Below, one piece after another: positions 2,466 to 24,552 of a DNA stretch of 33,942 nucleotides. A program made the position numbers and the translations under genes. This stretch comes from Lachnospiraceae bacterium (GTDB taxonomy: Bacteria; Bacillota; Clostridia; Lachnospirales; Lachnospiraceae). Within the stretch, counting starts at the first letter, position 1; every line of letters starts with the position of its first letter. The notes under the pieces are model-generated. The model was not told the origin of the DNA. It was given only the letters and a program-made list of their open reading frames with translations, and searched no databases. The stretch is from positions 1-33,942 of the forward strand of contig JAIKXK010000265.1 of assembly GCA_024684155.1 (NCBI GenBank). Direction: 5' to 3'.

Positions 2466-2476
2466 AGGAGAATAAA

Positions 2477-10765: not shown

Positions 10766-11608
10766 ATGAGTAAGAATTTTGCCTGTGTGGAAATAGTAAA
10801 AGAACTGATAGAAAATAGAAAACTAGTTTTCACTCTTGGAAAAAATGATTTTAAAACGAAATATGCGGGACAATACTTAGGTATTGTCTGGGCATTTGTT
10901 CAGCCTGTAATTACAGTATTGGTATATTGGTTTGTATTTGAAAAAGCCTTAAATCAAGGAACTCGAATCACAAAGGCAGGAATTGAAGTGCCTTATGTTT
11001 TATGGCTGATTGCGGGCTTAGTACCTTGGTTTTATTTCTCGGAGTTGATGGCACAGGGAACATCGGCATTAATTGATTATAACTATTTGGTAAAAAAGGT
11101 TGTATTTAATATTAGTACTTTGCCAGTAGTAAAAATGATTTCTAGTCTATTTGTTCATTTTTTCTTTGTGGCATTTACTTTATTTTTGTATTGTTTATAT
11201 GGAAATTATCCAGATTTGTATACATTGCAGTTAATCTATTATTCCGTGGCAATGTCCATATTTATACTTGGATTTATCTATGCGTCAAGTGCAATTGTGG
11301 TTTTCTTTAGAGATTTCTCTCAGGTGATTAGCATTGCTCTTCAAGTAGGCATGTGGGTTACCCCTATTATGTGGAATCTGGATGGAATGGTTACGGCAGG
11401 ACGCATTGGTAAGACTTTAGAAATAATCATAAAATTAAACCCTATGTATTACATTGTAAATGGTTATAGAGAATCTCTAATTTCAAAGGTTTGGTTTTGG
11501 GAGAATCCTACCCTTACCATTTACTATTGGGGGTTGACTATTTTTATGTTTGTATTTGGCACATCTGTATTTAGAAAATTAAAAGTTCATTTTGCAGACG
11601 TGTTGTAA
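10766..11608 (+). CDS. ABC-2 type polysaccharide/teichoic-acid export permease (Wzm/TagG/RgpC-like)
   Basis: 280 aa with 6 hydrophobic segments. The N-terminal ...LGKNDFKTKYAGQYLGIVWAFVQP is the conserved ABC-2 polysaccharide permease signature. It sits directly upstream of the cognate ATPase. Confidence 0.85.
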   Translation: MSKNFACVEIVKELIENRKLVFTLGKNDFKTKYAGQYLGIVWAFVQPVITVLVYWFVFEKALNQGTRITKAGIEVPYVLWLIAGLVPWFYFSELMAQGTSALIDYNYLVKKVVFNISTLPVVKMISSLFVHFFFVAFTLFLYCLYGNYPDLYTLQLIYYSVAMSIFILGFIYASSAIVVFFRDFSQVISIALQVGMWVTPIMWNLDGMVTAGRIGKTLEIIIKLNPMYYIVNGYRESLISKVWFWENPTLTIYYWGLTIFMFVFGTSVFRKLKVHFADVL

Positions 11609-11619
11609 GGAATAGAGTT

Positions 11620-12927
11620 ATGGAAGAATATGCAATTCAAGTAAAAGATGTCAGCAAGATGTATAAATTATTTGATGACAATAAGTCACGAGTAATGGAT
11701 GCTCTTGGACTGACAAAGAAACAACTATATAAAGAACACTATGCTTTGCATCATATGGAGTTTGATGTAAAAAAAGGAGAAACCGTAGGATTAATCGGAA
11801 CCAATGGTGCTGGTAAATCCACCATATTAAAAATCATAACTGGTGTATTACATCCAACCGAGGGGAATGTGGAGATTGATGGAAGAATCTCTGCACTTCT
11901 AGAGTTAGGGGCTGGATTTAATATGGAGTATACCGGCATTGAAAATATTTACCTAAATGGAACAATGATTGGGTTCTCAAAAGAAGAAATAGATGAGAAG
12001 TTAGATGATATTTTAAATTTTGCCGATATTGGAGATTTTGTTTATCAGCCGGTGAAAACCTATTCTTCAGGTATGTTTGTTCGTTTGGCTTTTGCAGTAG
12101 CAATTAATATTGATCCTGAAATTCTGATTGTAGATGAAGCCCTTTCTGTTGGTGATGTTTTCTTCCAGGCAAAATGCTATAAAAAGTTTGAAGAATTTAA
12201 GGCAATGGGAAAGACAATCCTATTTGTAAGTCATGATTTATCCAGCATTACAAGATATTGTGATCGTGTCATTTTATTAAACAAAGGTCGTAAGCTTGCA
12301 GAAGGCACCCCTGGAGAAATGGTAAATCTTTACAAGCGAGTTTTGGCGGGAGCTGCTGATGTTGAGGGGATTGAAGCTGGAGAAAAAGGCGCATTAGAAC
12401 CTAAAACCGGTAGTGTGATAGATAAAGACGGAATGTGGAAAAGTCACTTTACCATTAACCCTAAGGTGGACGAGTATGGTGATGGTAAAGCAGAAATTAT
12501 AGATTTCGGTGTGTTTGATGAAAGAAATCTTGTAACAAATACACTTCAAAAAGGAGAGAAATTTACCATTCGCTCAAGGGTAAAGTTCCATTCGAAAATG
12601 GAAAATCCTATTTTTACTTATACCTTAAAGAATATTCAGGGAGTAGCGATTACTGGTACTAACACCATGTATGAAAAAGTAGATACAGATACTGCAAATG
12701 ATGGTGATGTATATGAAGTTGCTTTTTCTCAGGAAATGAGTCTTCAGGGCGGTGAATACTTATTATCGATTAGTTGTACCAGCTATGAAGGTGGAGAATT
12801 CCATGTTCATAATCGTTTATATGATGTAATTAACTTAACGGTGATTTCGACACAAAACACCGTAGGATTTTATGATATGTTTTCTGAAGTTTCAGTGGAA
12901 CGTAATGGAGAAACCATATTAAACTAG
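11620..12927 (+). CDS. Polysaccharide export ABC ATPase with C-terminal extension (Wzt/TagH/RgpD-like, Wzt_C-type putative glycan-binding domain)
   Basis: Walker A GTNGAGKST, signature YSSGMFVRLAFA, Walker B ILIVDEALSVGD and H-loop VSHD lie within about aa 1-245. Residues about 250-435 (12367-12924) form an extra beta-rich domain (AEIIDFGVFD..FTIRSRVKF..YEVAFSQEMSLQGGEYLLSIS). Confidence 0.85.
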   Translation: MEEYAIQVKDVSKMYKLFDDNKSRVMDALGLTKKQLYKEHYALHHMEFDVKKGETVGLIGTNGAGKSTILKIITGVLHPTEGNVEIDGRISALLELGAGFNMEYTGIENIYLNGTMIGFSKEEIDEKLDDILNFADIGDFVYQPVKTYSSGMFVRLAFAVAINIDPEILIVDEALSVGDVFFQAKCYKKFEEFKAMGKTILFVSHDLSSITRYCDRVILLNKGRKLAEGTPGEMVNLYKRVLAGAADVEGIEAGEKGALEPKTGSVIDKDGMWKSHFTINPKVDEYGDGKAEIIDFGVFDERNLVTNTLQKGEKFTIRSRVKFHSKMENPIFTYTLKNIQGVAITGTNTMYEKVDTDTANDGDVYEVAFSQEMSLQGGEYLLSISCTSYEGGEFHVHNRLYDVINLTVISTQNTVGFYDMFSEVSVERNGETILN

Positions 12928-13796
12928 TGGGGGTCACTTTGAAACAAGAAGAATTAATGCGAATACAAAGCATTGTGGAAGATGGGAAAAACCTTTCTTA
13001 TTCCGAAAAAAAAGAATATTTCCAGACAGAAGCATTCCATAGCGAATCGGTGTCTGTATTGGAACAGTTATCTTATTATAGAGAAAATCTCTACAATTGG
13101 TATCCGTTTCAATCCAGTGATCGTGTTTTAGTTTTAGGATGTGAGTGTGGCTATCTAACGGACTTTCTTTGCCAAAAGGTGAAGAAAGTTGTTTGCGTTG
13201 AACAGGAAAAAATATTTTCAGATATTTGTAATTCGAGATTTCATCAATATGAGAATTTTCAAATGGTAATCGTAGATCATCTCCTTTCCTTTGCAAAAGA
13301 TGAAAAAGAGGAATATGACATTATTATCTGTGATCATGGCATAGAAAAATATGGAGAAGCCTTATTTGAAGTTTTAAAAGAGCTTTGTAAGAGTACTACT
13401 ACCGTATTTGTTTCTGGTTCTAATCGTTTGGGAATGAAATATTGGAATGGGGCGCAAACAAAACAATATCCCAATCTGTTTGCAGGATTGCAACAAGATT
13501 ATGTGAAAGTGGAACATAGATTGTATTCCAGAAAAGAATATATAAAACTATTTGCGCGGGCAGGGTTCGTAGATGATATTTATGAGTATTATCCTTATCC
13601 CGATGAAGTATTCCCAACTGCAATTTATTCAGAAAATCGTCTTCCTAAAGTAGGAGAATTAAATAAACAGTTAAGGGATTTTTCTGAAAAGAAGGTAAGC
13701 TTTTTTAAAGAAAACGAAGCGTTTGATGTTGTAATTGAACAGGAAAACTTCCCAGAGTTTTCCAACGGGTTATTATTTGTATTACAGGTGAAATAA
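12927..13796 (+). CDS. Class I SAM-dependent methyltransferase-like protein (variant motif I)
   Basis: DRVLVLGCECGYLTDFL (motif I with GxExG instead of GxGxG, 13137-13151), VVCVEQE (acidic end of beta-2) and YDIIICDHG (motif II). The start is uncertain: GTG 12927 overlaps the wzt-like stop by 1 nt, and TTG 12939 or ATG 12957 are also possible. Confidence 0.6.
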   Translation: MGVTLKQEELMRIQSIVEDGKNLSYSEKKEYFQTEAFHSESVSVLEQLSYYRENLYNWYPFQSSDRVLVLGCECGYLTDFLCQKVKKVVCVEQEKIFSDICNSRFHQYENFQMVIVDHLLSFAKDEKEEYDIIICDHGIEKYGEALFEVLKELCKSTTTVFVSGSNRLGMKYWNGAQTKQYPNLFAGLQQDYVKVEHRLYSRKEYIKLFARAGFVDDIYEYYPYPDEVFPTAIYSENRLPKVGELNKQLRDFSEKKVSFFKENEAFDVVIEQENFPEFSNGLLFVLQVK

Positions 13797-13797
13797 A

Positions 13798-16728
13798 ATG
13801 GAAAGAATTATTTATTCTAAGTTTTCCAATGACAGAAAAAAAGAATATGCTTTGGTAACAAAAATTCTATCAAAGGATAATGAATTATATGTGTTAAAGG
13901 AAAGTGAGGAAGAAACAGCAAAAAACCATATATTTAAGCTCGTGGAAATCTGTGAGGGGTTAAAAAAACAACTTTTAGATACAGACTTTTATGTTCCTAT
14001 GAGTAAGAAAACAACCAATGGAATCAGAATGGAATATGTAGAAGGCAAGACGCTAGAAGAACATTTTGACGAATTATTAGTAGAGGGAAAAACAAAGGAA
14101 TGTGCAGAAGAAATATATGATTTTTTAAAAGATCTTTTGGAAAAAATACCACACAGTGATTTTAAGATGACAGAAGAATTTTCTGACGTCTTTGGTGAGG
14201 TAACATTGCCAGAGGGGTTATCTAGTTTTGAATGGTCAGATATTGATTTAATTTTCCCTAATATTATTTTGAGTAATAAAGGAAAAGCTATTATTGATTA
14301 TGAATGGACGTTCCATTTTCCTGTTCCGGTGGAGTATATTTGGTTTCGCTCACTTCATAGCTATATTGATTATAGCGAGAAGAGAAAAGAACTTTTAGAT
14401 TATAACTTATATGAGAAACTTGGAATTACAGAAGATATGATAGGTGCATTTTGGAAGATGGAAGATGCTTTCCAAAGTGGTATTTATGAAAAGAGTAGTT
14501 CCTTGGATGAGTTCCATGAAAAGGTGGGGCTTGAGCATTTTTCTTTTCCTTCTGATTATGAGTGTATTCATATGCCAGAGGAAACACCTGGTGATTTCTT
14601 ACGTGTTATAGCAGAATTAGAATCCGAAATTGACAGACAGGTAGAGCGTAAGATGGAAGGGTCTTGCTCTATAAAAAAATTAATTTTATGGGCAGCAAAA
14701 CTTTATGGTAGCGCATCAGAGAAAGAAAAAGAGTTGGCTCATAGAAGTATGAATGCCTCCATGTATTCCTACGATATTTTATTTCCAAATGAGTTGCAAC
14801 ATGATGAATTTATAGTAGTAGATACTGTGAATCAGAAAGCAATGGATGGGCTAAATAGTGGAAAAATTGTTGTAGTGGATGATTGGCTTTATGACAAAGA
14901 AGAAGTGACTCTATGTGATTTACTAGAAGAAAAAACTGAACTGGATTGCAGTTTGTCTTTTTCATATAAGAATGCAAAAGTGTTTTTAGAAGAACGAATG
15001 AAAGATGAACAGAAAAAAACACAAACACTGTTTTCTAATGTGAGAAAAAGAGAAAGAGAAAAAAATGAGAGAAATCTTGCTACGAAAAAAAAGAACGTCA
15101 TATTCTTTTTGGTTTTAGGAGTTTTGACTGTTTTTCGTATTGGTTTGCAACTTCGCTTGCCTATAGGAGCATTTCCTGCTCAATATAGTGACGATGGTAT
15201 TATGATGAGTAATGCCATTAATCTTATGCAGGGAAACTATTTAGGAGAGTATAATTCCTATGTTTTAACAAAGGGGATTTCTTATTCCTTGTTTTTGGTA
15301 CTTACTTATGCAACCATGATTCCTTATGGAATGATGTTATGTATATGGAATATTATTTCTGCAGTAGTGTTTTTGCGCGGAATTTCGCCTCGGATATATT
15401 CAAAAAAATTATTTGCATTTTTATATTTGGTATTACTGTACTTACCAATAGGAATGGATCGATTTATTGGAACAAGAATTTATCGAATTGGAATTATGCC
15501 TTACTTTGCTCTTTTGGTAGCTGGCTGTGCAATTGGTGCTTATCTTAGAAGGGATAAGGGAAGCAAAGCTCTTTTGCCATGGCTGATCTTTGAGGGATTA
15601 TTCCTGGCATTTTTCTATAATATTCGTGAAGATTCTATTTGGATTATGCCATTAGTATTTGTGATTCTAATCATAGAGATAGCTTTAGTTTTCGGTGGAT
15701 TGTGTAAGAAAGAGATGAATCTTTCGAAATTTCTTAAAAGAAGTTTGTTGTATTTACTTCCCATCCTTATATTGTTTGGAACACAGCAGATTTATAAAGG
15801 GGTAAATTATTGTGTATATGGAATTGCAGAAGTAAATGATCGAGCAGGATCTTCCTATGCGGATGTATTAGAGGATTTATATCATATTGATGGCGAAATT
15901 GAGAGAGTAGATGTCTGGGTAACACAGGAAATGCTTCAGAATGCCATTGATGTAAGTCCAACACTTGCATCGATTGAGAAAGAAATCCATGAGAATATGG
16001 CTCAATGGGCAGTGGAAAAGCAGGTACGTGGAGATTTAGTTGGTTGGGCATTGCGAGAAGCAGTAGCAGAAGCTGGCTATTATAAAGATGCTGTTTCAAC
16101 CGAAGCGTTCTATGCTGATGTTCACAAAGAACTAACAGACGCTTTTTCCAACGGCTCTTTAAAGGAAAGGGATGGAATCTATTTATCTTCACAGTTACAG
16201 GCAACAACTCCAAAAGAACTTGTAAAGGTAGTATTAAAATCTCTTCGCACAATGTTTTATGATAGTACCTATTACGAAGTGAAGGCAGAAGCTCAAAAAG
16301 CTCAAGGAAATGTAGATGAAGTCCGTACCTTCGAAAGAGTTACTGGACAACTTGCAGTAATGACAGAAAAGGATTTAAAGGGATATAACAAAGAAGCGAT
16401 TACGGTTGCTAATGCAATTATTTTTGTTTATCGCATTCTGGGATTTATCACTACGCTTTTAAGTGTAGTTGCATATTTATATTTAACAATTTCACTGTTG
16501 AAAAAAAGAAAGTACCAAAATGTTATCTGTATGGATTCATGGTTGATTTTAACAGGTCTTATTCTCAGTGCATTTGTACTTTGTTTTGGAGTAATGATGG
16601 CCATGCGATGGTTTGTGGACAATGTGAATATTTGGTCTGCTTTTTATACAGCAGCTTGTTTTCCATATATTGTATTGTTTAAATGGCTGGCACTTTACTT
16701 AGGTTATAAAGAGTATAAGGAAGGATAA
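13798..16728 (+). CDS. Chimeric protein: N-terminal protein-kinase-like domain, charged/coiled linker, GT-C-like polytopic membrane domain with a ~200-aa extracytoplasmic insert
   Basis: The kinase-like signature comprises YVLKES (Lys34), MEYVEGKTL (hinge-like), DLIFPN (D150-x4-N155, 14245-14262) and IIDYEW (D167, 14296-14298), spaced as in APH/WbdD-type kinases. A K/E/R-rich stretch spans aa 395-432. TM1 starts near aa 433 and is followed by AQYSDDG (15190-15195). About 8 TMs, a soluble segment at about aa 660-860 and 3 more TMs follow. Confidence 0.55.
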   Translation: MERIIYSKFSNDRKKEYALVTKILSKDNELYVLKESEEETAKNHIFKLVEICEGLKKQLLDTDFYVPMSKKTTNGIRMEYVEGKTLEEHFDELLVEGKTKECAEEIYDFLKDLLEKIPHSDFKMTEEFSDVFGEVTLPEGLSSFEWSDIDLIFPNIILSNKGKAIIDYEWTFHFPVPVEYIWFRSLHSYIDYSEKRKELLDYNLYEKLGITEDMIGAFWKMEDAFQSGIYEKSSSLDEFHEKVGLEHFSFPSDYECIHMPEETPGDFLRVIAELESEIDRQVERKMEGSCSIKKLILWAAKLYGSASEKEKELAHRSMNASMYSYDILFPNELQHDEFIVVDTVNQKAMDGLNSGKIVVVDDWLYDKEEVTLCDLLEEKTELDCSLSFSYKNAKVFLEERMKDEQKKTQTLFSNVRKREREKNERNLATKKKNVIFFLVLGVLTVFRIGLQLRLPIGAFPAQYSDDGIMMSNAINLMQGNYLGEYNSYVLTKGISYSLFLVLTYATMIPYGMMLCIWNIISAVVFLRGISPRIYSKKLFAFLYLVLLYLPIGMDRFIGTRIYRIGIMPYFALLVAGCAIGAYLRRDKGSKALLPWLIFEGLFLAFFYNIREDSIWIMPLVFVILIIEIALVFGGLCKKEMNLSKFLKRSLLYLLPILILFGTQQIYKGVNYCVYGIAEVNDRAGSSYADVLEDLYHIDGEIERVDVWVTQEMLQNAIDVSPTLASIEKEIHENMAQWAVEKQVRGDLVGWALREAVAEAGYYKDAVSTEAFYADVHKELTDAFSNGSLKERDGIYLSSQLQATTPKELVKVVLKSLRTMFYDSTYYEVKAEAQKAQGNVDEVRTFERVTGQLAVMTEKDLKGYNKEAITVANAIIFVYRILGFITTLLSVVAYLYLTISLLKKRKYQNVICMDSWLILTGLILSAFVLCFGVMMAMRWFVDNVNIWSAFYTAACFPYIVLFKWLALYLGYKEYKEG

Positions 16729-16729
16729 T

Positions 16730-17749
16730 ATGATTATTAAACTTGGAATTGCCTGTATAGGAATTCTTCTGTCTTCCCTATGTGTGGGACTGAATTTTAT
16801 AAAGGAAAAATTTAATATTGTGGAAGCGGTATTATATGGATTTCTTGGAGTCTTGGGAGGATTAGAAGTCATTTCTCTTCCGTGCATCTATCTTAGACAA
16901 AGCTTTTCTTCGTTTTTTTTGATCGGACTTATTGCAGTAGTTGTAGCATCTGTTATAGGTGTGTTTAGAAAGCGTAAATATTTGCTGACCTGGATAAAGG
17001 AAAGTGTTCGGGGAATTCCTAAAAATATATATTTCTTTATATTTTTGGTTTTCTTATTGGGACAGGTAGGAATATTACAGCTTACTTATCATATGGATGA
17101 AGATGATGCCTTTTATGTTGCTACTAGTACGACTTCGATAGATACGGATACGTTATATATTTATGATGCATTTACAGGAGAAGCTTATGATACCTATCCA
17201 GCAAGATATGTATTATCCCCATTTCCTTTGTATACAGCTTTTGTAGCAAAATGTTTCGGTCTTCGACCTATGGTGGTAGCCCATACAGTTTTTGCAGCTG
17301 TTATGATTATATTGGCGTATGGTGCAATCTGGCTGTTTTCGGAATTATTCTTTGAGGATGGAGAAAAGAAAAGTATTGTCATGGTAATAGCTTCAGGACT
17401 TACAGTATTTTCTTATTATTCTGCTGACATTGCAGGAGCTAGACTTTTGCTTCGCCCATGGCAGGGGAAAACTCTGTTAGCATCCATTGTATTGCCAGTC
17501 ATATTGTATTTTGTTTTAAAATGCGGGAAAAAAGCGAGTATGTCGCTTTTGGAATTTTGTCTGTTATTTCTTATGATGTTAGGCGCATGCTTTGTATCCT
17601 CTATGGGAATTGTTTTATCAGTTGTTATGCTTGGTGTTATTCTTGTAGTTTTATTTTTGCAGACAAAAAATATAAAAATGTTGTTGCAGGGAATTGCTTG
17701 CTGCATTCCAGGAGCAGCACTTTCTTTGATTTATTTAATGATTCGATAG
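16730..17749 (+). CDS. Polytopic membrane protein of unknown function (GT-C-like acidic loop motif)
   Basis: 339 aa with about 9-10 hydrophobic segments. An RKRKYLL loop (inside) is followed by TM4 and then YHMDEDDAFYVATS (DEDD at 17096-17107), predicted outside. AGGAAGGA lies upstream of the ATG. Confidence 0.45.
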   Translation: MIIKLGIACIGILLSSLCVGLNFIKEKFNIVEAVLYGFLGVLGGLEVISLPCIYLRQSFSSFFLIGLIAVVVASVIGVFRKRKYLLTWIKESVRGIPKNIYFFIFLVFLLGQVGILQLTYHMDEDDAFYVATSTTSIDTDTLYIYDAFTGEAYDTYPARYVLSPFPLYTAFVAKCFGLRPMVVAHTVFAAVMIILAYGAIWLFSELFFEDGEKKSIVMVIASGLTVFSYYSADIAGARLLLRPWQGKTLLASIVLPVILYFVLKCGKKASMSLLEFCLLFLMMLGACFVSSMGIVLSVVMLGVILVVLFLQTKNIKMLLQGIACCIPGAALSLIYLMIR

Positions 17750-17758
17750 GATAGAAAA

Positions 17759-19402
17759 ATGATAGAAGTATTTGCGGATGTAATGAAAAACTTTTTAGAG
17801 TTTTTCAATGGAAATTATACTTATATAGTTTTATATGTATTGGCCTTAATTGTAATGGTTATCTGGATGAAGAAAAAAGATGTGACAAAGAATCTTATCT
17901 GGATGAGTATTCTATTATCTATTGTAATTTTCTGCCCAATTACTGCAAAGATAATTATGGTGGGACTTGGAGATAATGTATATTGGAGGATGTTTTGGCT
18001 ATATCCATTCATTCCAGTTATTTCAGTTGCATTGACTTTATTAGTATCAAAGGTAAAGCATAAATTGTTACGTTTTTTTGCAGTGGGAATGTGCGGAGTG
18101 TTTATTCTTTTGGCCGGGAATTCCGTCATCAGTAAGGAATTGTTTGATCGAGCAGAAAACTATGAAAAGACTCCACAGTACGTAATAGAAGTTTGTAACA
18201 TGATTAACGAGGATGCAAAAGAGCAGAATATTACAGATAAAAAATTAGCAACCTGCTCAGCATTTTTATTATATGTGAGACAATATGATGCTACATTAAA
18301 AATGGAAAATAGTAGAGAAAACATTCGTGGGTTTGATGATAGAGAAAATGCATCTATGATTTTTCAATACTTATGTGGTCAAAATGAGAGCATTGATTAT
18401 GATGAGCTGGCAGAATTACTTCGGGAAGAAAACTGTTCCTACATTGTTTTAGATATGGAATATCAGACAGAAATGGGAAGCGAATTAGTAAATCGGGGCT
18501 TTACTCCTGTTGGAAATTATGGACAGTATTATGTTTATAGAGATGGATTCATCAATCTTATGGAACCAATTGAAAACAACGAAGTGGTCAGTCAGTTTGC
18601 AACTTCTGATTCGGGATATTTAATCGGACAATACGCGTCCTTAACAGGGGATCAATCTTCCTTTTATACTATTACAGATACAAAAGGACATTTGATTGTT
18701 ATTGACGGAGGATGGAAAGGGGATAGCGAATATGTTCGTCAGGTAATTGATTACTTTGGCGGAAAAGTGGATGCCTGGATTATTACACATCCTCACTTTG
18801 ACCATGTTCGTGCCTTTAATACCTTAATGGCATCAGAAAACTGCCCAGAAATCACTACGATTTATGCTTCTGAATTTGATTATGATCAATATAAAGAAGA
18901 AGCCAAAAACTGGGATCATTTTGAAGACTTTGAAGATTTTTTAAGCGTTACAAAGGATGCTACGAATTTAGAATATTTACATGCAGGAGACTCTTTGGAA
19001 ATTTGTGGCTTACAAGTGGATGTTTACCATGATTATTCTACCAAAGATGGGGGAGATGCCTGTAATGATGGTTCTTTGGTTTTTGAAGTGACAGCAAACC
19101 AACAAAGTATGCTCTTTTGTGGAGATACAGGAGAGGAACAGTCAGAGACGATTATAGAAAATTATGGAGAACAACTTTCAGCAGATTATCTTCAAATGGG
19201 ACACCACGGAAATGGCGGGTTAAATGAAGAATTCTATAAATTAGTTTCTCCTTCAGTGGCTTTTTTCGATGCACCAGAGTGGCTTATGAATCCAGAGGGA
19301 GAAACTACCTATACCACACCTGAAAATCGTGAGTTGATGGAGTCCCTAGGTGCAAAGATTTATTATTTTAATACAGCACCAAATTATATTATTTTGGATT
19401 AA
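17759..19402 (+). CDS. Membrane-anchored metallo-beta-lactamase-fold hydrolase (ComEC/Pce-type MBL domain), 4 N-terminal TM helices
   Basis: There are 4 TMs in aa 20-123, with KKKDVTK and SKVKHKLLR loops. The MBL motifs are VIDGG, THPHFDH (HxHxDH, 18788-18805), LFCGDTGEE and LQMGHHGNGG, the last being the ComEC-like xHHGS motif. The positive-inside rule places the C-terminal 420 aa outside the membrane. Confidence 0.7.
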   Translation: MIEVFADVMKNFLEFFNGNYTYIVLYVLALIVMVIWMKKKDVTKNLIWMSILLSIVIFCPITAKIIMVGLGDNVYWRMFWLYPFIPVISVALTLLVSKVKHKLLRFFAVGMCGVFILLAGNSVISKELFDRAENYEKTPQYVIEVCNMINEDAKEQNITDKKLATCSAFLLYVRQYDATLKMENSRENIRGFDDRENASMIFQYLCGQNESIDYDELAELLREENCSYIVLDMEYQTEMGSELVNRGFTPVGNYGQYYVYRDGFINLMEPIENNEVVSQFATSDSGYLIGQYASLTGDQSSFYTITDTKGHLIVIDGGWKGDSEYVRQVIDYFGGKVDAWIITHPHFDHVRAFNTLMASENCPEITTIYASEFDYDQYKEEAKNWDHFEDFEDFLSVTKDATNLEYLHAGDSLEICGLQVDVYHDYSTKDGGDACNDGSLVFEVTANQQSMLFCGDTGEEQSETIIENYGEQLSADYLQMGHHGNGGLNEEFYKLVSPSVAFFDAPEWLMNPEGETTYTTPENRELMESLGAKIYYFNTAPNYIILD

Positions 19403-19421: not shown

Positions 19422-20774
19422 ATGCAGGGAAAGAAAAAAATATTTACCATTGTGTTTTTTGCATTTGCAGGAGCACATATTTTAACATTTACCCACGGAG
19501 ATTCTACTAGAATTATGGAATGGGCGAAGCTATTTTTAGATAGCTTGTTTTCTGGAAATATTAGAAATTATGCTGAAGTATTATTGGATAAAGATATCCC
19601 TTCAAACTACAGCATTTTTATTCATATTATAAATTCCATTTGGGTGCTTCCTGTATATGGGATTGATACTTTTATAGATGGAGATATACCTTTATATGTG
19701 TATTCCATGTGGCACCGTGTGCTGTCAGTTCTGCTTACGTTTATTACTATGGGCTATATAGAAAAAATAGGAATACATTTTGGTGTGTCTAGGGAAAAAA
19801 TGGAAGTTGCTACGTTTTTCTATGGCATTTCTACACCACTAATTGTAGGAACTTATGCTATGGGACAAATTGATGCATACCCAACGTTGTTTATGGTAAT
19901 GGGGTTATATTATTTGCTTGAAGAAAAAACGACAGAATCCATTTTATCCTTTTCAGTGATTTTATTTTTAAAACCGTTTGCCTTTATGTATATAGCTCCT
20001 ATGCTGCTGTTATATTTTGCAGATAAATGGAAAAAAGCAATTCCTTATGGAGTATTAGTCGGTATAGTTTGGATTGTGAAAAAACTTGTTACAAAGATAT
20101 TTATCGGATATGGAGATATGGTCTATGTAGAAGAGGTGGAATGGGATCATTTAAGCTTCTTTTTCACTTCAGAGATAAATGTCTTACCACTTTTTGTATT
20201 AACGGTGGGAGTTGTACTTTGTATCTGTTTTGTAAAGGGCATGAAAGGAAAGGTGAAAGAGTGGGATTATATTTACTATCCATATGTAGTATTTTTAGCT
20301 TTTGTAGCATTTAACTTTTGGAATCCCCAGTGGTTTTTGTATGGGATGCCTTTTATCACAATTATATTGTGTAAGATGTGTAATGAAGCAGAAGCAATGG
20401 CTTTTGGTGCAGGCATAAATGGGGCATATTTACTCTTTAACTATTGTGCTTTTAATGGCATGGTGGAAAGTAATATGATTGCAGGTGGACTTATTGCAAA
20501 AACAAGTGGCATTAAGTGGAAAAGTGCAAGCTTACTTGGATTAATTGCAAATAAAATGCCTACAATATCAGGGTACATAACTTCAATTAGTTTAGGAATA
20601 TTAGTGGCTTGTATGATATATGTTTGTTATGCTACTAGGAAAGAGACGTTAGAAGCAGAAGTAGTGGATGCATCTTTGTTTGAAAATAAGAAAAAAGCTT
20701 TTTTGGTTTTATTTGTGATGATATCCATATTTATGATTATATATTCTTATTTTGAGCTATTTAGATGGAATTAA
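19422..20774 (+). CDS. Polytopic membrane protein of unknown function (possible GT-C glycosyltransferase, polymerase or ligase)
   Basis: 450 aa with about 11-12 hydrophobic segments. The N-terminal MQGKKK (inside) is followed by TM1 and then THGDSTRIMEW opening an external loop. TAGGAG lies upstream. I recognise no soluble domain or named motif. Confidence 0.4.
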   Translation: MQGKKKIFTIVFFAFAGAHILTFTHGDSTRIMEWAKLFLDSLFSGNIRNYAEVLLDKDIPSNYSIFIHIINSIWVLPVYGIDTFIDGDIPLYVYSMWHRVLSVLLTFITMGYIEKIGIHFGVSREKMEVATFFYGISTPLIVGTYAMGQIDAYPTLFMVMGLYYLLEEKTTESILSFSVILFLKPFAFMYIAPMLLLYFADKWKKAIPYGVLVGIVWIVKKLVTKIFIGYGDMVYVEEVEWDHLSFFFTSEINVLPLFVLTVGVVLCICFVKGMKGKVKEWDYIYYPYVVFLAFVAFNFWNPQWFLYGMPFITIILCKMCNEAEAMAFGAGINGAYLLFNYCAFNGMVESNMIAGGLIAKTSGIKWKSASLLGLIANKMPTISGYITSISLGILVACMIYVCYATRKETLEAEVVDASLFENKKKAFLVLFVMISIFMIIYSYFELFRWN

Positions 20775-20903: not shown

Positions 20904-22196
20904 ATGAAAAAATTTTTCAGCAAAAAGAGAAACATAGTGATTGCCGTAATTGTTGTAATTGCATTAGCTGCAGCAGGTGTTGGCGGATACTATTATTTCT
21001 TTGTTGGAACAAGTAGCGAGGATATTGCATATGTGTCCAGCGTAGCAACAATTACAGGCCAGACTGCAAATGGATTAAATAATCGCTATGCAGGTGTTGT
21101 AGAGGCCGAAGAGACTTGGAGTGTAGCATTGGATAGTTCTTTAACGGTTAGTGAGACTTATGTTGAAGTAGGACAGGAGGTAGAGGCAGATACTCCTTTA
21201 TTTTCCTATGATATGACTGAAACAGAAGCATCCCTTCGAAGTGCACAGTTAGAACTAGAAAGATTAAACAACGAACTTACTGCAATGCAAACAGATTTAA
21301 ATGAGTTAGTTGCTGCAAGGGATGCAACAGGGGATGAAAGTGCAAAGGCGGAATATACAGTTGAAATTCAACAGTCCCAGTTAGATATTACCTCAAAGCA
21401 GTATGATATTACTTCGAAAAAAGAGGAAATTACAAAACTTCAGGAAACGTTAAATAAGGGAACGGTAAACAGTAAAATCGCAGGAGTGGTAAAGTCAATT
21501 GCATCATCAGATAGTAGTGAGATGTCTGATTCAAATGCATTTATTACCATTGTAAATATGAATAAGTTCCAAATTAAAGGAAGTGTAAATGAACAGAATT
21601 TAGCTTCTTTATCTGCAGATTTACCAGTCATTGTGTATTCAAGATCAGATAGCGAGGCTTATTGGAAGGGAACGATTACAAAGGTAGATTCGAATAATGC
21701 TACAAGTAATGGTTCTGATGAGACTGACTCAGATGAAATGACGTCTTCCTCTAACTACCCATTCTATGTTTCAGTAGAAGATACCACTGGTTTAAATATG
21801 GGACAGCACGTTTATATTGAACTAGACCAAGGACAGTTGGAAGAGGATACTTCTGCTATTTCATTAGAGGAATACTATATCGATATGACAGATGAACAAA
21901 ATCCATTTGTTTGGGTGGATGAAGATGGTAAGCTGGCAAAACGAAGTGTAACCCTTGGCGAATATAATGAGGATACCATGACCTACGTAATAACAGATGG
22001 GTTAGACCTTACTGACTTAATTGCAGTGCCTTATGAAGGATTAAAAGAGGGTATGGAGACTTCAAATATGGATGAAGTAGATACAGAGGATGTCAGTGAA
22101 GAAGGTGACTACGAAGAGTCTGAAGAATCAGAAGGCGATGTAGAAGAATTAACCGATGATTCTGAAATGGAAGATGAGGGTGAAATAGAGGAGTAA
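20904..22196 (+). CDS. HlyD/MacA-family membrane-fusion (periplasmic adaptor) protein 1, with acidic C-terminal tail
   Basis: An N-terminal TM (IVIAVIVVIALAAAGVGGYYYFF), lipoyl halves (RYAGVVEAEE..VEVGQEVEADTPLFSYD and KIAGVVKSI), a coiled-coil hairpin (SLRSAQLELERLNNELTAMQTDLNEL..) and a beta-barrel/MP domain. The last 42 aa (22068-22193) are overwhelmingly D/E/S. Confidence 0.8.
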   Translation: MKKFFSKKRNIVIAVIVVIALAAAGVGGYYYFFVGTSSEDIAYVSSVATITGQTANGLNNRYAGVVEAEETWSVALDSSLTVSETYVEVGQEVEADTPLFSYDMTETEASLRSAQLELERLNNELTAMQTDLNELVAARDATGDESAKAEYTVEIQQSQLDITSKQYDITSKKEEITKLQETLNKGTVNSKIAGVVKSIASSDSSEMSDSNAFITIVNMNKFQIKGSVNEQNLASLSADLPVIVYSRSDSEAYWKGTITKVDSNNATSNGSDETDSDEMTSSSNYPFYVSVEDTTGLNMGQHVYIELDQGQLEEDTSAISLEEYYIDMTDEQNPFVWVDEDGKLAKRSVTLGEYNEDTMTYVITDGLDLTDLIAVPYEGLKEGMETSNMDEVDTEDVSEEGDYEESEESEGDVEELTDDSEMEDEGEIEE

Positions 22197-22213
22197 TCCC
22201 GGAGGAGAATAAA

Positions 22214-22936
22214 TTGATTTTAGAAATGAAAAACGTTTATAAAGATTTTCCTCAGGGAGATTTCACTGTAAACGTATTAAAACATATTAATATTCAAATC
22301 CAAGAAGGCGATTATGTTGCTATTACTGGACCATCCGGTTCTGGAAAAACCACAATGATGAACTTAATCGGTTGCTTGGATTCAGTTACCAAAGGCCAAA
22401 TGATTTTGGATGGAGAGGATGTTAGCTCTTATACAGATAATCAACTTTCTGATTTAAGACTCCATAAAATTGGATTTGTATTTCAGAACTTTGAATTGTT
22501 AGGACAAAAGAGTGCAATTAAAAATGTTTGTGTTCCTTTGGCTTTTGCAGGAGTTCCGAAAAAAGAACAAATGGAAAGAGCAAAGGAAGCTTTAGAGAGG
22601 GTAGGATTAGGAGAGAGATTAGATTTCAAACCAAATCAGTTATCCGGTGGACAAAAACAAAGGGTTGCAATTGCAAGAGCCATGATCAATCGTCCACGTA
22701 TTTTACTTGCAGATGAGCCTACAGGTGCATTAGATTCAGCATCAGGAAAGGCAGTAATGGAGCTCTTTCAGCAGTTAAATGATGAAGGAACTACTATTAT
22801 AATGATTACTCATGACGCAGATGTTGCAGCAAAGGCGAAACGCAGAGCTGTAATGCGAGATGGTATATTAACTTCAGATGATGAGACTTTGGTACCACCT
22901 TATGAGGGAGAGGAGGTGCCTGAAAATGACCAATAA
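22214..22936 (+). CDS. MacB-family ABC transporter ATP-binding protein
   Basis: Walker A GPSGSGKTT, Q-loop, LSGGQKQRVAIARA, ILLADEPTGALD and ITHD. TTG 22214 lies 7 nt after GGAGGAG; ATG 22226 is an alternative start. The N-terminus MILEMKNVYKDF fits the family consensus. Confidence 0.9.
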   Translation: MILEMKNVYKDFPQGDFTVNVLKHINIQIQEGDYVAITGPSGSGKTTMMNLIGCLDSVTKGQMILDGEDVSSYTDNQLSDLRLHKIGFVFQNFELLGQKSAIKNVCVPLAFAGVPKKEQMERAKEALERVGLGERLDFKPNQLSGGQKQRVAIARAMINRPRILLADEPTGALDSASGKAVMELFQQLNDEGTTIIMITHDADVAAKAKRRAVMRDGILTSDDETLVPPYEGEEVPENDQ

Positions 22937-24533
22937 AGAGTGGAGTCTTAAGAAAAAGATTATTGTTGGCATTCTTGTTGGAATTCTCATATTTGCATTA
23001 GTGATTGGTGTCGTTTATATCGCTGTGTATTCTAATATGGGAAAGGTTCGCGTTATCCCTGTATCTGATGCCATTGGATATGATTCTGATTCTGATCAGT
23101 ATACTATGGAAGGAAGTATTAGCACAGGGGTTACTCAAGATGTAACAACAGAAGATGGAAAAGTTTCTGAAATTTTAGTAAAGGTTGGAGACTATGTTGA
23201 AAAGGGCACTGCTTTAGTGAGATTAGATGCAACTGAAGCTCAACTTCAATTAGAACAGGCGAAAATTGATTTACAATCAAAGCAGGTTGATTTGAATAAT
23301 GCTTATGCAAAGCAGGAAATGCTGAATAATGCTCAAAGTTATGTAGAGACAATAAAAGTTCCTGTGGATTCTGATGATGAAGACAGTTCTGAAAGCGATT
23401 CTGATTCTTCTAGTGAAAGTTCTGATTCATCATCAGATTCAGAGTCTTCTGATGATAGCGATTCCGATTCAGAGTCTTCCGAAGAAAGTGATTCAGATTC
23501 TGATTCATCTGAAGAAAGTGACTCGGATTCCGATTCGTCCAGTGATAGTTCTGATTCATCATCAGATTCAGAATCAGAGTCTTCCGAAGAAAGTGATTCA
23601 GAAACTGAGTATAAGGAAGTGGTAGTGGAAACAGATGAACCACAATTTCAAACTTCGGATGGGACTATTTATTCAGAATCAGAATTACGAAAAGAAAAGA
23701 CTTCTACAGAAAATGACATTAGAGATTTACAAACGGATATTAAGGAAGCTCAGGTAAATATAGAAAATGCACAGGAAACTTTAGATAACTGTACCGTAAA
23801 AGCAACCTTGGATGGTTATGTGACAAAGGTGTCTGAAACCGCAATTAAAAGCGACACTTCTGAAGAGGACTCAGATGAGGATGAAGAAGAACTAGATGGG
23901 GAAATCGATACCTCATCAGATATTGTTTCAGATACAGATGATAGCATGGAAGATGATGGGGTTATTGTCCAGGTGTCTTCCTTGGATGGTTTATTTGTGA
24001 AATCTGCTATGAGTGAATGGCGATTAGAAAAATTTGGTGTGGGAGACACTGTCTATGTCATGGATTGGGAAAGTGGCAATACCTATAAGGCAACCATTAC
24101 TACTATTTCTTCTTATGCTTCTGAATATTATTCACAGATGTATCAGTATATGGGAGGAACTTCATCAAGTTACTATCCTTTTACAGCGCAGATTACAGAA
24201 GATGGAACAGGACTTACTGCTGGAGATTATGTAGATGTTTCTTTTAGCGCTTCCATGGATATGGATAGCGATGAGGAAGAATACACTGAAGATGGACCAA
24301 TTAGCCTGATGAAAGCATTTGTTCGCACTGAAAATGGAAAGAAGTACGTTTATGTAAGAGGTGAGAATGACAAATTAAAGAAACAGTATGTAACTGTTGA
24401 TAGTCAGTCTCAGGAAACCTATACCATATCAGAGGGTCTTACCTATGATGATTATATCGCGTTCCCTTATGGAAATAATGTAAGAGAAGGCGCATTAACG
24501 GTAGAAGGTAGCATTGATGAATTATATGAATAA
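22926..24533 (+). CDS. HlyD/MacA-family membrane-fusion protein 2, carrying an 81-aa Ser/Asp/Glu tract in the hairpin region
   Basis: ATG 22926 follows GGAGGAGG and overlaps the ATPase stop by 11 nt; the ORF-track start 22878 is an over-extension. Features are a TM (IIVGILVGILIFALVIGVVYIAV), a lipoyl half (ILVKVGDYVEKGTALVRLD), helix 1 (EAQLQLEQAKIDLQSKQVDLNNAYAKQEMLNNAQ), the S/D/E tract, helix 2 (RKEKTSTENDIRDLQTDIKEAQVNIENAQETLDNC) and LDGYVTKV. Confidence 0.8.
   Translation: MTNKEWSLKKKIIVGILVGILIFALVIGVVYIAVYSNMGKVRVIPVSDAIGYDSDSDQYTMEGSISTGVTQDVTTEDGKVSEILVKVGDYVEKGTALVRLDATEAQLQLEQAKIDLQSKQVDLNNAYAKQEMLNNAQSYVETIKVPVDSDDEDSSESDSDSSSESSDSSSDSESSDDSDSDSESSEESDSDSDSSEESDSDSDSSSDSSDSSSDSESESSEESDSETEYKEVVVETDEPQFQTSDGTIYSESELRKEKTSTENDIRDLQTDIKEAQVNIENAQETLDNCTVKATLDGYVTKVSETAIKSDTSEEDSDEDEEELDGEIDTSSDIVSDTDDSMEDDGVIVQVSSLDGLFVKSAMSEWRLEKFGVGDTVYVMDWESGNTYKATITTISSYASEYYSQMYQYMGGTSSSYYPFTAQITEDGTGLTAGDYVDVSFSASMDMDSDEEEYTEDGPISLMKAFVRTENGKKYVYVRGENDKLKKQYVTVDSQSQETYTISEGLTYDDYIAFPYGNNVREGALTVEGSIDELYE
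23367..23609 (+). repeat. Imperfect tandem/dispersed coding repeat encoding 81 consecutive S/D/E residues (one T)
   Basis: The translation is DSDDEDSSESDSDSSSESSDSSSDSESSDDSDSDSESSEESDSDSDSSEESDSDSDSSSDSSDSSSDSESESSEESDSETE. One 26-nt exact repeat occurs at 23418-23443 and 23547-23572 (offset 129). One 29-nt exact repeat occurs at 23469-23497 and 23574-23602 (offset 105). Both offsets are multiples of 3. Confidence 0.95.
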
Positions 24534-24552
24534 TAAGAAATAAGAGGCGATT

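What the first reader, a model, noticed from the sequence alone, without database searches (positions are those of the whole stretch)
10766..14502. Cap-dependent ABC export logic: Wzm, Wzt with extra C-terminal domain, then methyltransferase-like and kinase-like modules in WbdD domain order
Seen: four consecutive genes with 1-12 nt spacing or overlap. The ATPase is 435 aa, but its nucleotide-binding domain ends near aa 245. That leaves about 190 beta-rich residues (12367-12924), as in Wzt proteins that carry a carbohydrate-binding C-domain. A methyltransferase-like ORF follows immediately, and then an ORF whose first ~230 aa carry a D-x4-N ... D kinase signature. Established: in E. coli O8/O9a the Wzt C-domain recognises a non-reducing-end methyl or methyl-phosphate cap. 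That cap is installed by WbdD (methyltransferase, then kinase, then coiled coil), and capping sets chain length. The Geobacillus stearothermophilus S-layer glycan uses a 2-O-methyl cap (WsaE). Inference: this locus encodes a cap-and-export chain-length control system. The WbdD-like terminator appears to be split into two genes while keeping the same module order. To my knowledge this arrangement is not described for Gram-positive wall polysaccharides.
Basis: partly seen in the sequence, partly recalled or inferred. Interest (0 to 1): 0.75.

Follow-up and report, generated by a model that had tools for sequence, protein, structure and literature searches.

The report
Capped-glycan export module in a Lachnospiraceae
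A gut-type Gram-positive bacterium carries, next to its rhamnose-polysaccharide genes, an ABC exporter with a sugar-end-reading domain and a two-gene relative of the Klebsiella O7 "methyltransferase-kinase" chain terminator. This is a known export logic in a lineage where it has not been described, and here the methyltransferase half looks catalytically decayed.

Summary
Four tightly packed + strand genes encode Wzm, a 435-aa Wzt with a Pfam Wzt_C domain (E 6.7e-40), a 289-aa class-I-methyltransferase-like protein, and a 976-aa protein. The first 250 aa of that protein fold as a protein-kinase-like (APH/choline-kinase type) domain with invariant K34, D150-x4-N155 and D167.

The cap-and-export reading is supported, but WbdD is the wrong relative. 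The pair is homologous to the K. pneumoniae O7 ORF6-N terminator, which puts methyl-phosphate on terminal rhamnose (hmmsearch E 1e-30 to 5e-43; hhalign 98.5 %, E 1.8e-15). WbdD is not detectable by sequence.

The kinase module family is large: 3372 representative clusters, mostly Lachnospiraceae among the genome loci. It sits almost always directly after Wzm-Wzt(Wzt_C)-MT (52-56 of 56 loci). The split form is common (10 of 56).

Two features are unusual:
- The methyltransferase-like protein has lost 12 of 16 canonical residues, including one Gly of the GxGxG motif and the EDH motif. It groups with a degenerate-MT lineage that has its own Wzt-C subtype.
- The kinase is fused to a GT-C-like membrane glycosyltransferase.

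The cap chemistry (phosphate or methyl-phosphate) is inferred, not shown. This is a new variant of a known kind, of moderate interest.

The parts
10766..11608 (+). Wzm, ABC-2 type permease (280 aa)
   Evidence: Pfam ABC2_membrane E 8.6e-15. A Wzm homolog lies upstream of the kinase module in 49 of 56 genome loci.
11620..12375 (+). Wzt nucleotide-binding domain (aa 1-252). Walker A GTNGAGKS starts at aa 60, signature YSSGM at aa 148, Walker B LIVDEA at aa 169.
   Evidence: phmmer against the PDB: A. aeolicus Wzt 8dku, E 6.2e-75, aa 6-252. Motif positions.
12376..12927 (+). Wzt C-terminal extension (aa 253-435). The Pfam Wzt_C carbohydrate-binding module covers aa 284-420 (nt 12469-12879).
   Evidence: PF14524 Wzt_C E 6.7e-40, 136.8 bits, profile 3-143 of 143. 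Its nearest relatives (55-68 % identity) come from loci with a degenerate MT.
12927..13796 (+). Methyltransferase-like protein (289 aa from GTG 12927; the start is more likely TTG 12939). It is homologous to the MT domain of ORF6(O7)-N-type terminators but is degenerate: motif I reads VLVLGCECG (V69, G71, E73, G75) and the EDH motif reads TKQ (aa 178-180).
13798..14547 (+). Kinase-like module (aa 1-250 of the 976-aa protein). K34 (13897-13899), catalytic-loop D150 (14245-14247) and N155 (14260-14262), metal-binding D167 (14296-14298) within IIDYEW.
   Evidence: AlphaFold2 pLDDT 93.7. Foldseek: APH(3')-Ia E 8.4e-6, probability 1.0, followed by macrolide, choline and MTR kinases and protein kinases. 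Invariant residues. hhalign against the ORF6-like family: 98.5 %, E 1.8e-15.
14548..15090 (+). Linker of about 180 aa, charged and helical near its end. It replaces the Ig-like domain that follows the kinase in most relatives.
   Evidence: An HMM of the post-kinase domain hits 60 family members in the set of 68 but not this protein. No Pfam hit.
15091..16728 (+). GT-C-like polytopic membrane domain (aa 432-976). An invariant DD (aa 465-466, nt 15190-15195) sits in the first loop after TM1, predicted to be outside the cell.
   Evidence: AlphaFold2 pLDDT 87.0. Foldseek: ArnT 5ezm E 3.8e-4, then Pmt1-Pmt2, AglB, STT3 and PglB. Invariant D56 and nearly invariant D57 in alignment A4. It is a separate 562-aa gene in the syntenic locus L006. 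Hydrophobic segments.

Best explanation
The four genes form the termination-and-export module of an ABC-transporter-dependent wall-polysaccharide pathway, rich in rhamnose and probably containing galactofuranose, in a Lachnospiraceae-like Firmicute.

Proposed sequence of events:
1. The polymer is built on a polyprenol carrier at the cytoplasmic face.
2. The kinase-like module (aa 1-250 of the 976-aa protein) phosphorylates the non-reducing terminal sugar with ATP, which stops elongation.
3. The Wzt C-terminal carbohydrate-binding module recognises this modified end and admits only capped chains to the Wzm/Wzt channel.

The 289-aa protein is the methyltransferase half of the same terminator, as in K. 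pneumoniae O7 ORF6-N. Here it has lost most SAM-binding and active-site residues, so it most likely acts as a structural partner of the kinase. The cap is then more likely a phosphate (or something else that is not methylated) than methyl-phosphate.

The kinase is tethered to the membrane by fusion to a GT-C-like glycosyltransferase, which presumably decorates the polymer after export.

Shown here: gene content, domain homologies, folds, conserved catalytic residues, synteny statistics and MT degeneracy. Inferred: kinase activity on the glycan end, the cap chemistry, cap reading by Wzt-C, and the role of the GT-C domain.
For: - Wzt_C E 6.7e-40.
- The kinase-like fold is predicted with high confidence and matches APH, choline-kinase and protein-kinase structures. 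65 PDB hits have E<=1e-3 and all of the top 50 listed are kinases.
- K34, D150, N155 and D167 are invariant.
- The window's MT-like and kinase-like ORFs match consecutive domains of single 590-745-aa proteins, a Rosetta-stone fusion.
- Profile-profile comparison of the kinase modules gives 98.5 %, E 1.8e-15 over 200 columns. D150/N155/D167-E169-W170 fall on the ORF6-family invariants D446/N451/D464-E466-W467.
- The first of these corresponds to D441 of ORF6(O7), whose D441A mutant abolishes phosphorylation. The enzyme adds methyl-phosphate to O3 of terminal alpha-Rha, and non-terminated chains are not exported (PMC11231755).
- Synteny: of 56 genome loci with enough upstream DNA, 56 have the MT domain, 52 a Wzt_C, 53 a Wzt NBD and 49 a Wzm directly upstream. 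The gene order is the same in four hand-checked contigs.
- MT degeneracy. Purifying selection on the MT-like gene.
- Wzt-C subtype co-varies with MT status.
- The locus also has RmlA, RmlC, Glf, a WsaF-like rhamnosyltransferase, GT2 enzymes, a Bac_transf initiating transferase and an LCP ligase.
Against: - No biochemical or structural data exist for this polymer, so a terminal modification is not demonstrated.
- A Glu at the central Gly of motif I and loss of EDH argue against methyltransfer but do not prove inactivity. The Rossmann core, E92 and Y142 remain.
- The window's protein lacks both the Ig-like domain and any long coiled-coil 'ruler' found in prototype terminators. Chain-length control may therefore work differently or be absent.
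- The co-variation of Wzt-C subtype with MT status may simply reflect co-inheritance.
- Foldseek TM-scores for the kinase are modest (about 0.5).
Confidence: 0.72

Rival explanations
1. This is a full ORF6(O7)/WbdD(O9a)-like chemistry. The 289-aa protein is an active SAM-dependent methyltransferase, and kinase plus MT together install a methyl-phosphate cap that Wzt-C reads.
For: The protein is homologous to the O7 terminator, in which both activities were demonstrated. The MT-like gene is under purifying selection (dN/dS about 0.12). It keeps the Rossmann core, G71, G75, the post-motif-I acid E92, Y142 and the NxxGxKY motif. It gives weak class I MT profile hits.
Against: 12 of 16 positions that are invariant in active-type homologs (proteobacterial and Firmicute) are changed: Y28M, Y66E, H67Q, E89V, G93E, S114E, R117F, E157K, E191S and E204T-D205K-H206Q. 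These include G93, which was part of the G91A/G93A MT variant constructed for ORF6(O7) (plasmid list), and two of the Tyr residues named as SAM contacts. The closest ortholog (L006) shares the Glu in motif I and the loss of EDH.
Confidence: 0.2
2. The kinase-like domain is a small-molecule kinase (choline, aminoglycoside or sugar-1-kinase type) that supplies a precursor or decoration. For example, it could feed the UDP-sugar pyrophosphorylase at 25882-27105. It would not be a chain terminator, and Wzt-C would bind the polymer backbone rather than a cap.
For: The best structural matches are small-molecule kinases: APH(3'), Mph, LicA choline kinase, MTR kinase and FN3K. An IDxEW/Y motif is typical of choline and APH kinases. 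A PF01704 UDPGP gene lies in the window.
Against: The module is fused to, or directly follows, the terminator-type MT domain in 56 of 56 loci, and follows Wzt_C in 52 of 56. It is also found fused to polymerising GT2 and RgpF modules, the architecture of known terminator-polymerase proteins. It is homologous to the ORF6(O7) kinase that acts on the glycan terminus. No LicC/LicD-type genes were seen in the window.
Confidence: 0.05
3. The MT-like and kinase-like proteins are relics or scaffolds with no catalytic role. Export by Wzm/Wzt does not depend on a cap in this lineage.
For: The MT half is clearly degenerate. The Ig-like domain and coiled coil are missing.
Against: Every catalytic residue of the kinase module is invariant across the family, including in all degenerate-MT members. 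The genes are under purifying selection. A CBM-bearing Wzt is retained, with a subtype specific to this lineage.
Confidence: 0.03

Closest known systems
Klebsiella pneumoniae O7 ORF6(O7)-N methyltransferase-kinase terminator, working with its CBM-bearing Wzm/Wzt (Kelly et al., J Biol Chem 2024, PMC11231755)
   Same: The MT domain is homologous, including its C-terminal PxPDY...NSF extension, and so is the 'unannotated' APH-like kinase domain. The order is MT then kinase. Both share the D-x4-N and (I/L)IDxEW motifs, with D150 here corresponding to D441 there. Both belong to rhamnose-containing polymers exported by an ABC transporter. Firmicute relatives show the same variants as reported for ORF6: ending after the kinase region, or fused to GT2 polymerase modules.
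   Different: - Here the two domains are separate genes.
- The MT half lacks most canonical residues.
- The Ig-like domain and coiled coil after the kinase are absent.
- The kinase is fused to a GT-C-like membrane domain instead of cytoplasmic GT2 modules.
- The host is a Gram-positive Lachnospiraceae-type organism with an LCP ligase rather than LPS.
- Published orthologs were only from alpha- and gamma-proteobacteria and cyanobacteria.
E. coli O9a / K. pneumoniae O3 WbdD (MT 1-210, eukaryotic-like kinase 211-459, coiled coil 460-708; PMC3482155) with Wzt-CBM
   Same: The logic is the same: kinase plus methyltransferase in the order MT then kinase, a terminal cap read by the Wzt C-terminal CBM, and termination coupled to export.
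   Different: No detectable sequence relationship: WbdD is absent from the PDB profile hits at E<=1 to E<=10. The WbdD kinase resembles Src/ROCK-type protein kinases, whereas this module is closest to APH and choline kinases, and WbdD is not in the top 50 Foldseek hits. The 2024 paper also states that the O7 and O3 kinases differ in sequence and structure. The resemblance is analogy, not family membership.
Geobacillus stearothermophilus NRS 2004/3a S-layer glycan system (WsaE methyl cap, Wzm/Wzt)
   Same: It is a Gram-positive, rhamnose-based glycan made by an ABC-transporter-dependent pathway with a non-reducing-end cap. A WsaF-like rhamnosyltransferase is present in this window (PF22772/PF21374).
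   Different: I did not test homology to WsaE.
APH(3') aminoglycoside, macrolide (Mph) and choline (LicA) kinases
   Same: They are the best structural matches, with the same catalytic-loop D-x4-N and metal-binding Asp in an IDxE(W/Y) context.
   Different: There is no significant sequence similarity. The genomic context and domain fusions are exclusively glycan-assembly.
ArnT, PMT and oligosaccharyltransferase GT-C glycosyltransferases (for the C-terminal domain of the 976-aa protein)
   Same: Foldseek probability is 0.99-1.0 for ArnT, Pmt1/2, AglB and STT3. An invariant acidic DD pair lies in the first loop after TM1, as in GT-C catalytic loops.
   Different: TM-scores are low (about 0.3). 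There is no Pfam family and no sequence hit. Donor and acceptor are unknown. I know of no described fusion of a GT-C domain to a cytoplasmic kinase-like terminator.

Membership tests
Wzt with C-terminal carbohydrate-binding module (Pfam PF14524 Wzt_C) | ABC nucleotide-binding domain of the Wzt/TagH type followed by a Wzt_C beta-sandwich domain scoring above the Pfam gathering threshold | tested here: met
   ABC_tran E 1.1e-23 and Wzt_C 136.8 bits against a cut-off of 30.4, full profile coverage. The NBD matches A. aeolicus Wzt at E 6e-75.
Wzt with C-terminal carbohydrate-binding module (Pfam PF14524 Wzt_C) | The CBM binds the modified non-reducing terminus, and export depends on that binding | not testable with these tools
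   This needs binding assays or genetics. The only indirect support is the co-occurrence with terminator genes.
ORF6(O7)-N-type methyltransferase-kinase glycan terminators | MT domain homologous to the family, including the PxPDY / NSF C-terminal extension | tested here: met
ORF6(O7)-N-type methyltransferase-kinase glycan terminators | Intact SAM-binding motif (E/D)xGxGxG (G91, G93) and the conserved residues Y28, Y66, E112, Y158 | tested here: not met
   The window has V69-L-G71-C-E73-C-G75. Y28 is M, Y66 is E and the EDH motif is TKQ. G91, E112 and Y158 are kept. The score is 4 of 16 canonical positions. It is therefore a homolog, but not demonstrably an active MT member.
ORF6(O7)-N-type methyltransferase-kinase glycan terminators | APH-like kinase domain with the catalytic Asp (D441 in ORF6) directly after the MT domain | tested here: met
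   hhalign 98.5 %, E 1.8e-15, 200 columns. D150-x4-N155 aligns with the family's D-x4-N, and D167-x-E-W aligns with LIDxEW. The domain follows the MT-like gene with a 1-nt gap.
ORF6(O7)-N-type methyltransferase-kinase glycan terminators | Coiled-coil molecular ruler (and Ig-like domain) after the kinase | tested here: not met
   The post-kinase domain HMM finds 60 family members in the set of 68 but not this protein. The linker is about 180 aa and is followed by TM helices. No dedicated coiled-coil predictor was run.
ORF6(O7)-N-type methyltransferase-kinase glycan terminators | Adds phosphate or methyl-phosphate to the terminal sugar and thereby stops polymerisation | not testable with these tools
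   This requires in vitro assays and NMR or MS of the polymer.
WbdD (E. coli O9a / K. pneumoniae O3) family | Sequence or structural membership of the MT and eukaryotic-like kinase domains in the WbdD family | tested here: not met
   WbdD chains are absent from the PDB profile searches with A1, A2 and A3 at E<=1 to E<=10 and from the top 50 Foldseek hits. The best folds are APH and choline kinases.
Protein-kinase-like (PKL) superfamily | Bilobal fold with a beta3 Lys, a catalytic-loop D-x4-N and a metal-binding Asp | tested here: met
   AlphaFold2 pLDDT 93.7 and pTM 0.87. 65 Foldseek hits have E<=1e-3, and the top 50 are all PKL kinases. K34, D150, N155 and D167 are invariant. K34 aligns on the JAK1 VAVK Lys in a sub-threshold HMM hit.
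GT-C fold glycosyltransferases (C-terminal domain of the 976-aa protein) | Polytopic membrane fold like ArnT/PMT/OST with acidic catalytic residues in the first extracytoplasmic loop | tested here: inconclusive
   The Foldseek top hits are all GT-C (ArnT E 3.8e-4, probability 1.0), but TM-scores are about 0.3. The invariant DD465-466 lies after TM1. There is no sequence-family hit.

The most novel reading that the evidence does not exclude
A lineage of Lachnospiraceae wall-polysaccharide systems, including this window, has turned the methyltransferase half of the ORF6-type terminator into a pseudoenzyme and caps its rhamnan with bare phosphate or another non-methylated group. That cap would be read by a co-evolved, distinct Wzt-C subtype. 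In this window the terminating kinase is in addition physically fused to an extracytoplasmic GT-C glycosyltransferase. That fusion would couple cytoplasmic chain termination to post-export decoration in one polypeptide, an arrangement not described for any capped-glycan system.
Probability: 0.3. Interest if true: 0.65.

Novelty: new variant of a known kind. Interest (0 to 1): 0.5.

Why it matters
Cap-dependent ABC export with a dedicated terminator has been worked out almost only in Gram-negative O antigens. The K. pneumoniae O7-type methyltransferase-kinase was recognised only in 2024, and its kinase domain has no Pfam model.

This study shows that the module forms a very large family (3372 clusters at 50 % identity). 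It is widespread among Lachnospiraceae genera that include gut commensals (Blautia, Roseburia, Acetatifactor, Butyrivibrio), and it is nearly always wired to a CBM-bearing Wzt.

That predicts phosphate- or methyl-phosphate-capped, length-controlled wall rhamnans in these organisms. Such polymers are relevant to phage receptors, immune recognition and glycoengineering.

The degenerate-MT lineage with its own Wzt-C subtype offers a natural experiment on how cap chemistry and CBM specificity co-evolve. The kinase-GT-C fusion hints at a link between termination and extracytoplasmic modification.

Tried and rejected
- Direct sequence searches of the 976-aa protein and of the domain profile A2 against PDB sequences found nothing significant. 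The best hit was the JAK1 N-lobe at E 0.065, so the fold had to come from AlphaFold2 and Foldseek.
- The whole-protein alignment A1 was unusable as a PDB query because GT2 domains of fused members dominated it. My first trimming of A1 by columns also failed. I re-extracted the domains with jackhmmer envelopes.
I used a degenerate DNA pattern for IDYEWTF instead. That scan returns 8-kb blocks not centred on the match and stopped at 120 rows, so the synteny statistics use only the 56 loci with at least 3.5 kb upstream.
I rebuilt the first ~445 aa of five orthologs from OCR text of SI Fig. 9 (noisy) and corrected motif I from the published mutagenesis primer. A single-sequence search and the A2 HMM against these fragments did not detect the kinase part. 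Profile-profile comparison with 30 full-length ORF6-like proteins did.
- The 2019 Glycobiology census by Mann, Kimber and Whitfield could not be read. Prior mention of Firmicute MT-kinase terminators there cannot be excluded.
- The WbdD-family hypothesis was rejected.
- The R. gnavus glucorhamnan paper was checked for a comparable module. It describes a flippase/polymerase (Wzx/Wzy-type) scheme and mentions no ABC transporter, methyltransferase or kinase.
- No coiled-coil predictor was available. Only composition and an HMM for the post-kinase domain were used.

Full report
**1. What is in the sequence**

The window has about 35 % G+C, and all large ORFs lie on the + strand. It encodes a wall-polysaccharide locus, in this order:
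- GT2 enzymes, DUF2142, Glf, RmlA, a WsaF-like rhamnosyltransferase, an NAD-dependent epimerase/reductase and RmlC
- the four genes of the finding
- DUF6077, a membrane protein with a metallo-beta-lactamase (MBL) domain, and another membrane protein
- a MacB/HlyD-type ABC system, a UDP-sugar pyrophosphorylase, a Bac_transf initiating transferase, a GT2 and an LCP ligase

The four genes are Wzm (10766-11608), Wzt (11620-12927), a 289-aa ORF (12927-13796) and a 976-aa ORF (13798-16728). The gaps between them are 11, -1 and 1 nt. The 289-aa ORF more likely starts at TTG 12939, behind a GGGGG run; its ortholog in a related contig starts at the equivalent position.

**2. Wzt**

The nucleotide-binding domain (aa 6-252) aligns with Aquifex aeolicus Wzt at E 6e-75. 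The remaining ~185 residues contain a full-length Pfam Wzt_C domain (aa 284-420, E 6.7e-40, 136.8 bits against a cut-off of 30.4).

**3. The kinase-like module**

The 976-aa protein has no Pfam hit and no PDB sequence hit. A homology search showed that only its first ~245 aa are widely conserved, as a mobile module. In other proteins this module follows a methyltransferase domain (590-745 aa proteins) or opens proteins that continue into GT2 or RgpF glycosyltransferase modules.

K34, D150, N155, D167, E169, W170 and R184 are invariant in clean alignments. An AlphaFold2 model built on that alignment is confident (pLDDT 93.7, pTM 0.87).

Foldseek against the PDB places it in the protein-kinase-like superfamily:
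- APH(3')-Ia is best (E 8.4e-6, probability 1.0, TM about 0.5).
- Macrolide phosphotransferases, LicA choline kinase, MTR kinase, FN3K, STK17B, Csk and RioK1 follow.
- 65 hits have E<=1e-3.

An exhaustive HMM search found 3372 representative clusters (50 % identity) at E<=1e-3, and 1733 at E<=1e-30. This is a large, unannotated family.

**4. The methyltransferase-like ORF and the "split"**

The 289-aa protein matches the N-terminal 200-300 aa of the fused proteins at E 1e-40 to 1e-20, directly before their kinase module. The two window ORFs thus correspond to one polypeptide elsewhere, in the order MT then kinase.

The split form recurs. In two hand-checked contigs a separate 305-aa MT gene precedes a kinase-GT2 or a kinase-RgpF protein. 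In a survey of GTDB species genomes, 10 of 56 informative loci are split and 46 are fused. Most of the top 150 metagenomic representatives carry the module at their N terminus.

**5. Association with the transporter**

I scanned genome contigs with a degenerate pattern for IDYEWTF (120 blocks, mostly Lachnospiraceae) and analysed them with local HMMs. 117 loci carry the kinase module. Of the 56 with at least 3.5 kb upstream in the retrieved block:

| Feature directly upstream of the kinase module | Loci (of 56) |
|---|---|
| MT-like domain | 56 |
| Wzt C-domain | 52 |
| Wzt NBD | 53 |
| Wzm | 49 |

The median distance from the start of the Wzt C-domain to the start of the kinase is 1.48 kb, so they are directly adjacent.

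Four contigs with precomputed Pfam annotation show the same order, RmlC or RmlB, then Wzm, Wzt(Wzt_C), MT and kinase. This is strong comparative support for a functional unit.

**6. Which known family**

WbdD has the same domain order (MT 1-210, kinase 211-459, coiled coil 460-708; PMC3482155). However, it does not appear in any PDB profile search at E<=1 to E<=10 or among the top 50 structural hits.

The literature search led to Kelly et al. 2024 (PMC11231755). In K. pneumoniae O7, ORF6 carries these parts in order:
- an N-terminal MT
- an "unannotated" 223-aa domain shown to be a kinase, with AmiN (APH-like) as its closest fold; D441A abolishes activity
- an Ig-like domain and a coiled coil
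- GT2 rhamnosyltransferase modules

ORF6 adds methyl-phosphate to O3 of the terminal alpha-Rha. Orthologs were reported from alpha- and gamma-proteobacteria and cyanobacteria.

With the rebuilt KpO7 fragment I then retrieved full-length ORF6-like proteins, including the Pseudomonas sp. M1 ortholog named in the paper. Their alignment has invariant D446-x4-N451 and D464-x-E466-W467. Profile-profile comparison with the window's kinase family gives 98.5 % probability, E 1.8e-15, over 200 columns. It superposes D150/N155/D167-E169-W170 on those invariants.

The window's pair is therefore a homolog of the O7-type terminator. WbdD is only an analogue.

**7. The MT half is degenerate here**

Sixteen positions are invariant in ORF6-like proteins and in most Firmicute homologs: Y28, Y66, H67, E89, G91, G93, G95, D/E112, S114, R117, E157, Y158, E191, E204, D205 and H206. 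The window keeps four of them: G91, G95, E112 and Y158. Motif I reads VLVLGCECG and the EDH motif reads TKQ.

Among 80 near-complete genome homologs:

| Class | Canonical positions kept | Number of homologs |
|---|---|---|
| Canonical | >=13 | 62 |
| Intermediate | 9-10 | 7 |
| Degenerate | <=8 | 11 |

The window belongs to the degenerate class.

The closest ortholog (L006, 56 % identity) shares the Glu in motif I and the lost EDH. dN/dS is about 0.12, with dS saturated, so the protein is maintained. The kinase residues are invariant in all members, degenerate or not.

The window's Wzt C-domain is most similar (55-68 %) to those of degenerate-MT or truncated-MT loci. All canonical-MT loci score 42-54 %. 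This is compatible either with a distinct cap and a matching CBM or with simple co-inheritance.

**8. The rest of the 976-aa protein**

The Ig-like post-kinase domain, found in 60 family members in the set of 68, is absent here. Instead, a ~180-aa linker leads to a polytopic membrane domain (aa ~432-976).

That domain occurs as a free-standing 560-675-aa protein in other Lachnospiraceae. In the syntenic contig L006 it is a separate gene directly after a 417-aa kinase protein. One other assembly (P0002) has the fusion.

Its AlphaFold2 model (pLDDT 87.0) matches GT-C glycosyltransferases: ArnT E 3.8e-4, then Pmt1/2, AglB, STT3, PglB and ALG12. TM-scores are only about 0.3. An invariant DD (aa 465-466) lies in the first loop after TM1. 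That loop is predicted to be outside the cell, given the cytoplasmic N-terminal kinase.

**9. Mechanism proposed**

Shown: the parts list, homologies, conserved catalytic residues and synteny. Inferred: everything below.
1. The polymer is elongated in the cytoplasm.
2. The kinase module phosphorylates the terminal sugar, probably rhamnose by analogy with O7.
3. The degenerate MT-like protein acts mainly as a partner or scaffold, so the cap is probably not methylated.
4. The Wzt C-domain reads the cap and licenses export by Wzm/Wzt.
5. The GT-C domain and the neighbouring DUF6077/DUF2142-type membrane proteins decorate the exported chain.
6. The LCP enzyme attaches it to peptidoglycan.

With no coiled-coil ruler, chain-length control may depend on kinase/polymerase stoichiometry or on membrane tethering.

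**10. Novelty and score**

The export logic and the terminator family are both known. Three things are new relative to what I could read:
- the presence and abundance of the family in Firmicutes
- a lineage with a decayed MT and its own Wzt-C subtype
- a kinase-GT-C fusion

I rate this a new variant of a known kind, interest 0.5.

Noticed in passing
window 13798-16728 (aa 432-976 = nt 15091-16728): The 976-aa ORF is a fusion of the kinase-like terminator protein with a GT-C-like membrane glycosyltransferase (invariant DD465-466). In the syntenic contig L006 the two are adjacent separate genes of 417 and 562 aa with overlapping stop and start. The fusion is also seen in one other assembly (P0002).
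   Followed up: yes
genome loci L010-L129; window 12376-12927 and 12927-13796: The Wzt C-domain subtype co-varies with the state of the MT domain. The window's ten nearest Wzt-C relatives (55-68 % identity) all come from degenerate- or truncated-MT loci, while the canonical-MT loci that follow in the ranking score 42-54 %.
   Followed up: partly
window 1011-2465, 16730-17749, 17759-19402, 19422-20774: Four further polytopic membrane proteins of unknown role flank the module: DUF2142, DUF6077, a membrane domain fused to a metallo-beta-lactamase domain, and a 450-aa protein without a Pfam hit. DUF6077 genes also follow the terminator in the unrelated contig L009. They may be extracytoplasmic glycan-modifying enzymes.
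   Followed up: no
window 2336-3592: The glf (UDP-galactopyranose mutase) ORF as listed starts at a TTG that overlaps the upstream DUF2142 gene by 130 nt. The NAD-binding domain begins at aa 54, so the real start is probably about 45 codons downstream.
   Followed up: no
window 20904-25803: A MacB-type ABC system (two HlyD-like adaptor genes, an ATPase and a MacB_PCD/FtsX permease) sits between the polysaccharide genes and the UDPGP, Bac_transf, GT2 and LCP block. The same adaptor and ATPase genes follow the module in L006, so the linkage is conserved.
   Followed up: no
family members P0003-P0068 (e.g. P0015 aa 531-681): Most relatives carry a conserved ~150-aa domain after the kinase (consensus QVYxDxGxGFSEE...RIDP...C...NG...TxDPxI). 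It probably equals the Ig-like 'CBM' noted in ORF6(O7). Many end in a short basic helix (e.g. ...YRLMKKIKNLLKKG) that could bind the membrane. Neither feature is present in this window's protein.
   Followed up: partly
window 1-33942: GC skew is positive in every 1-kb bin (0.14-0.38) and every ORF of at least 150 aa but one lies on the + strand. The exception, 15767-16252 on the - strand, lies inside the 976-aa gene and is probably spurious. This fits a long co-directional, leading-strand gene block.
   Followed up: no
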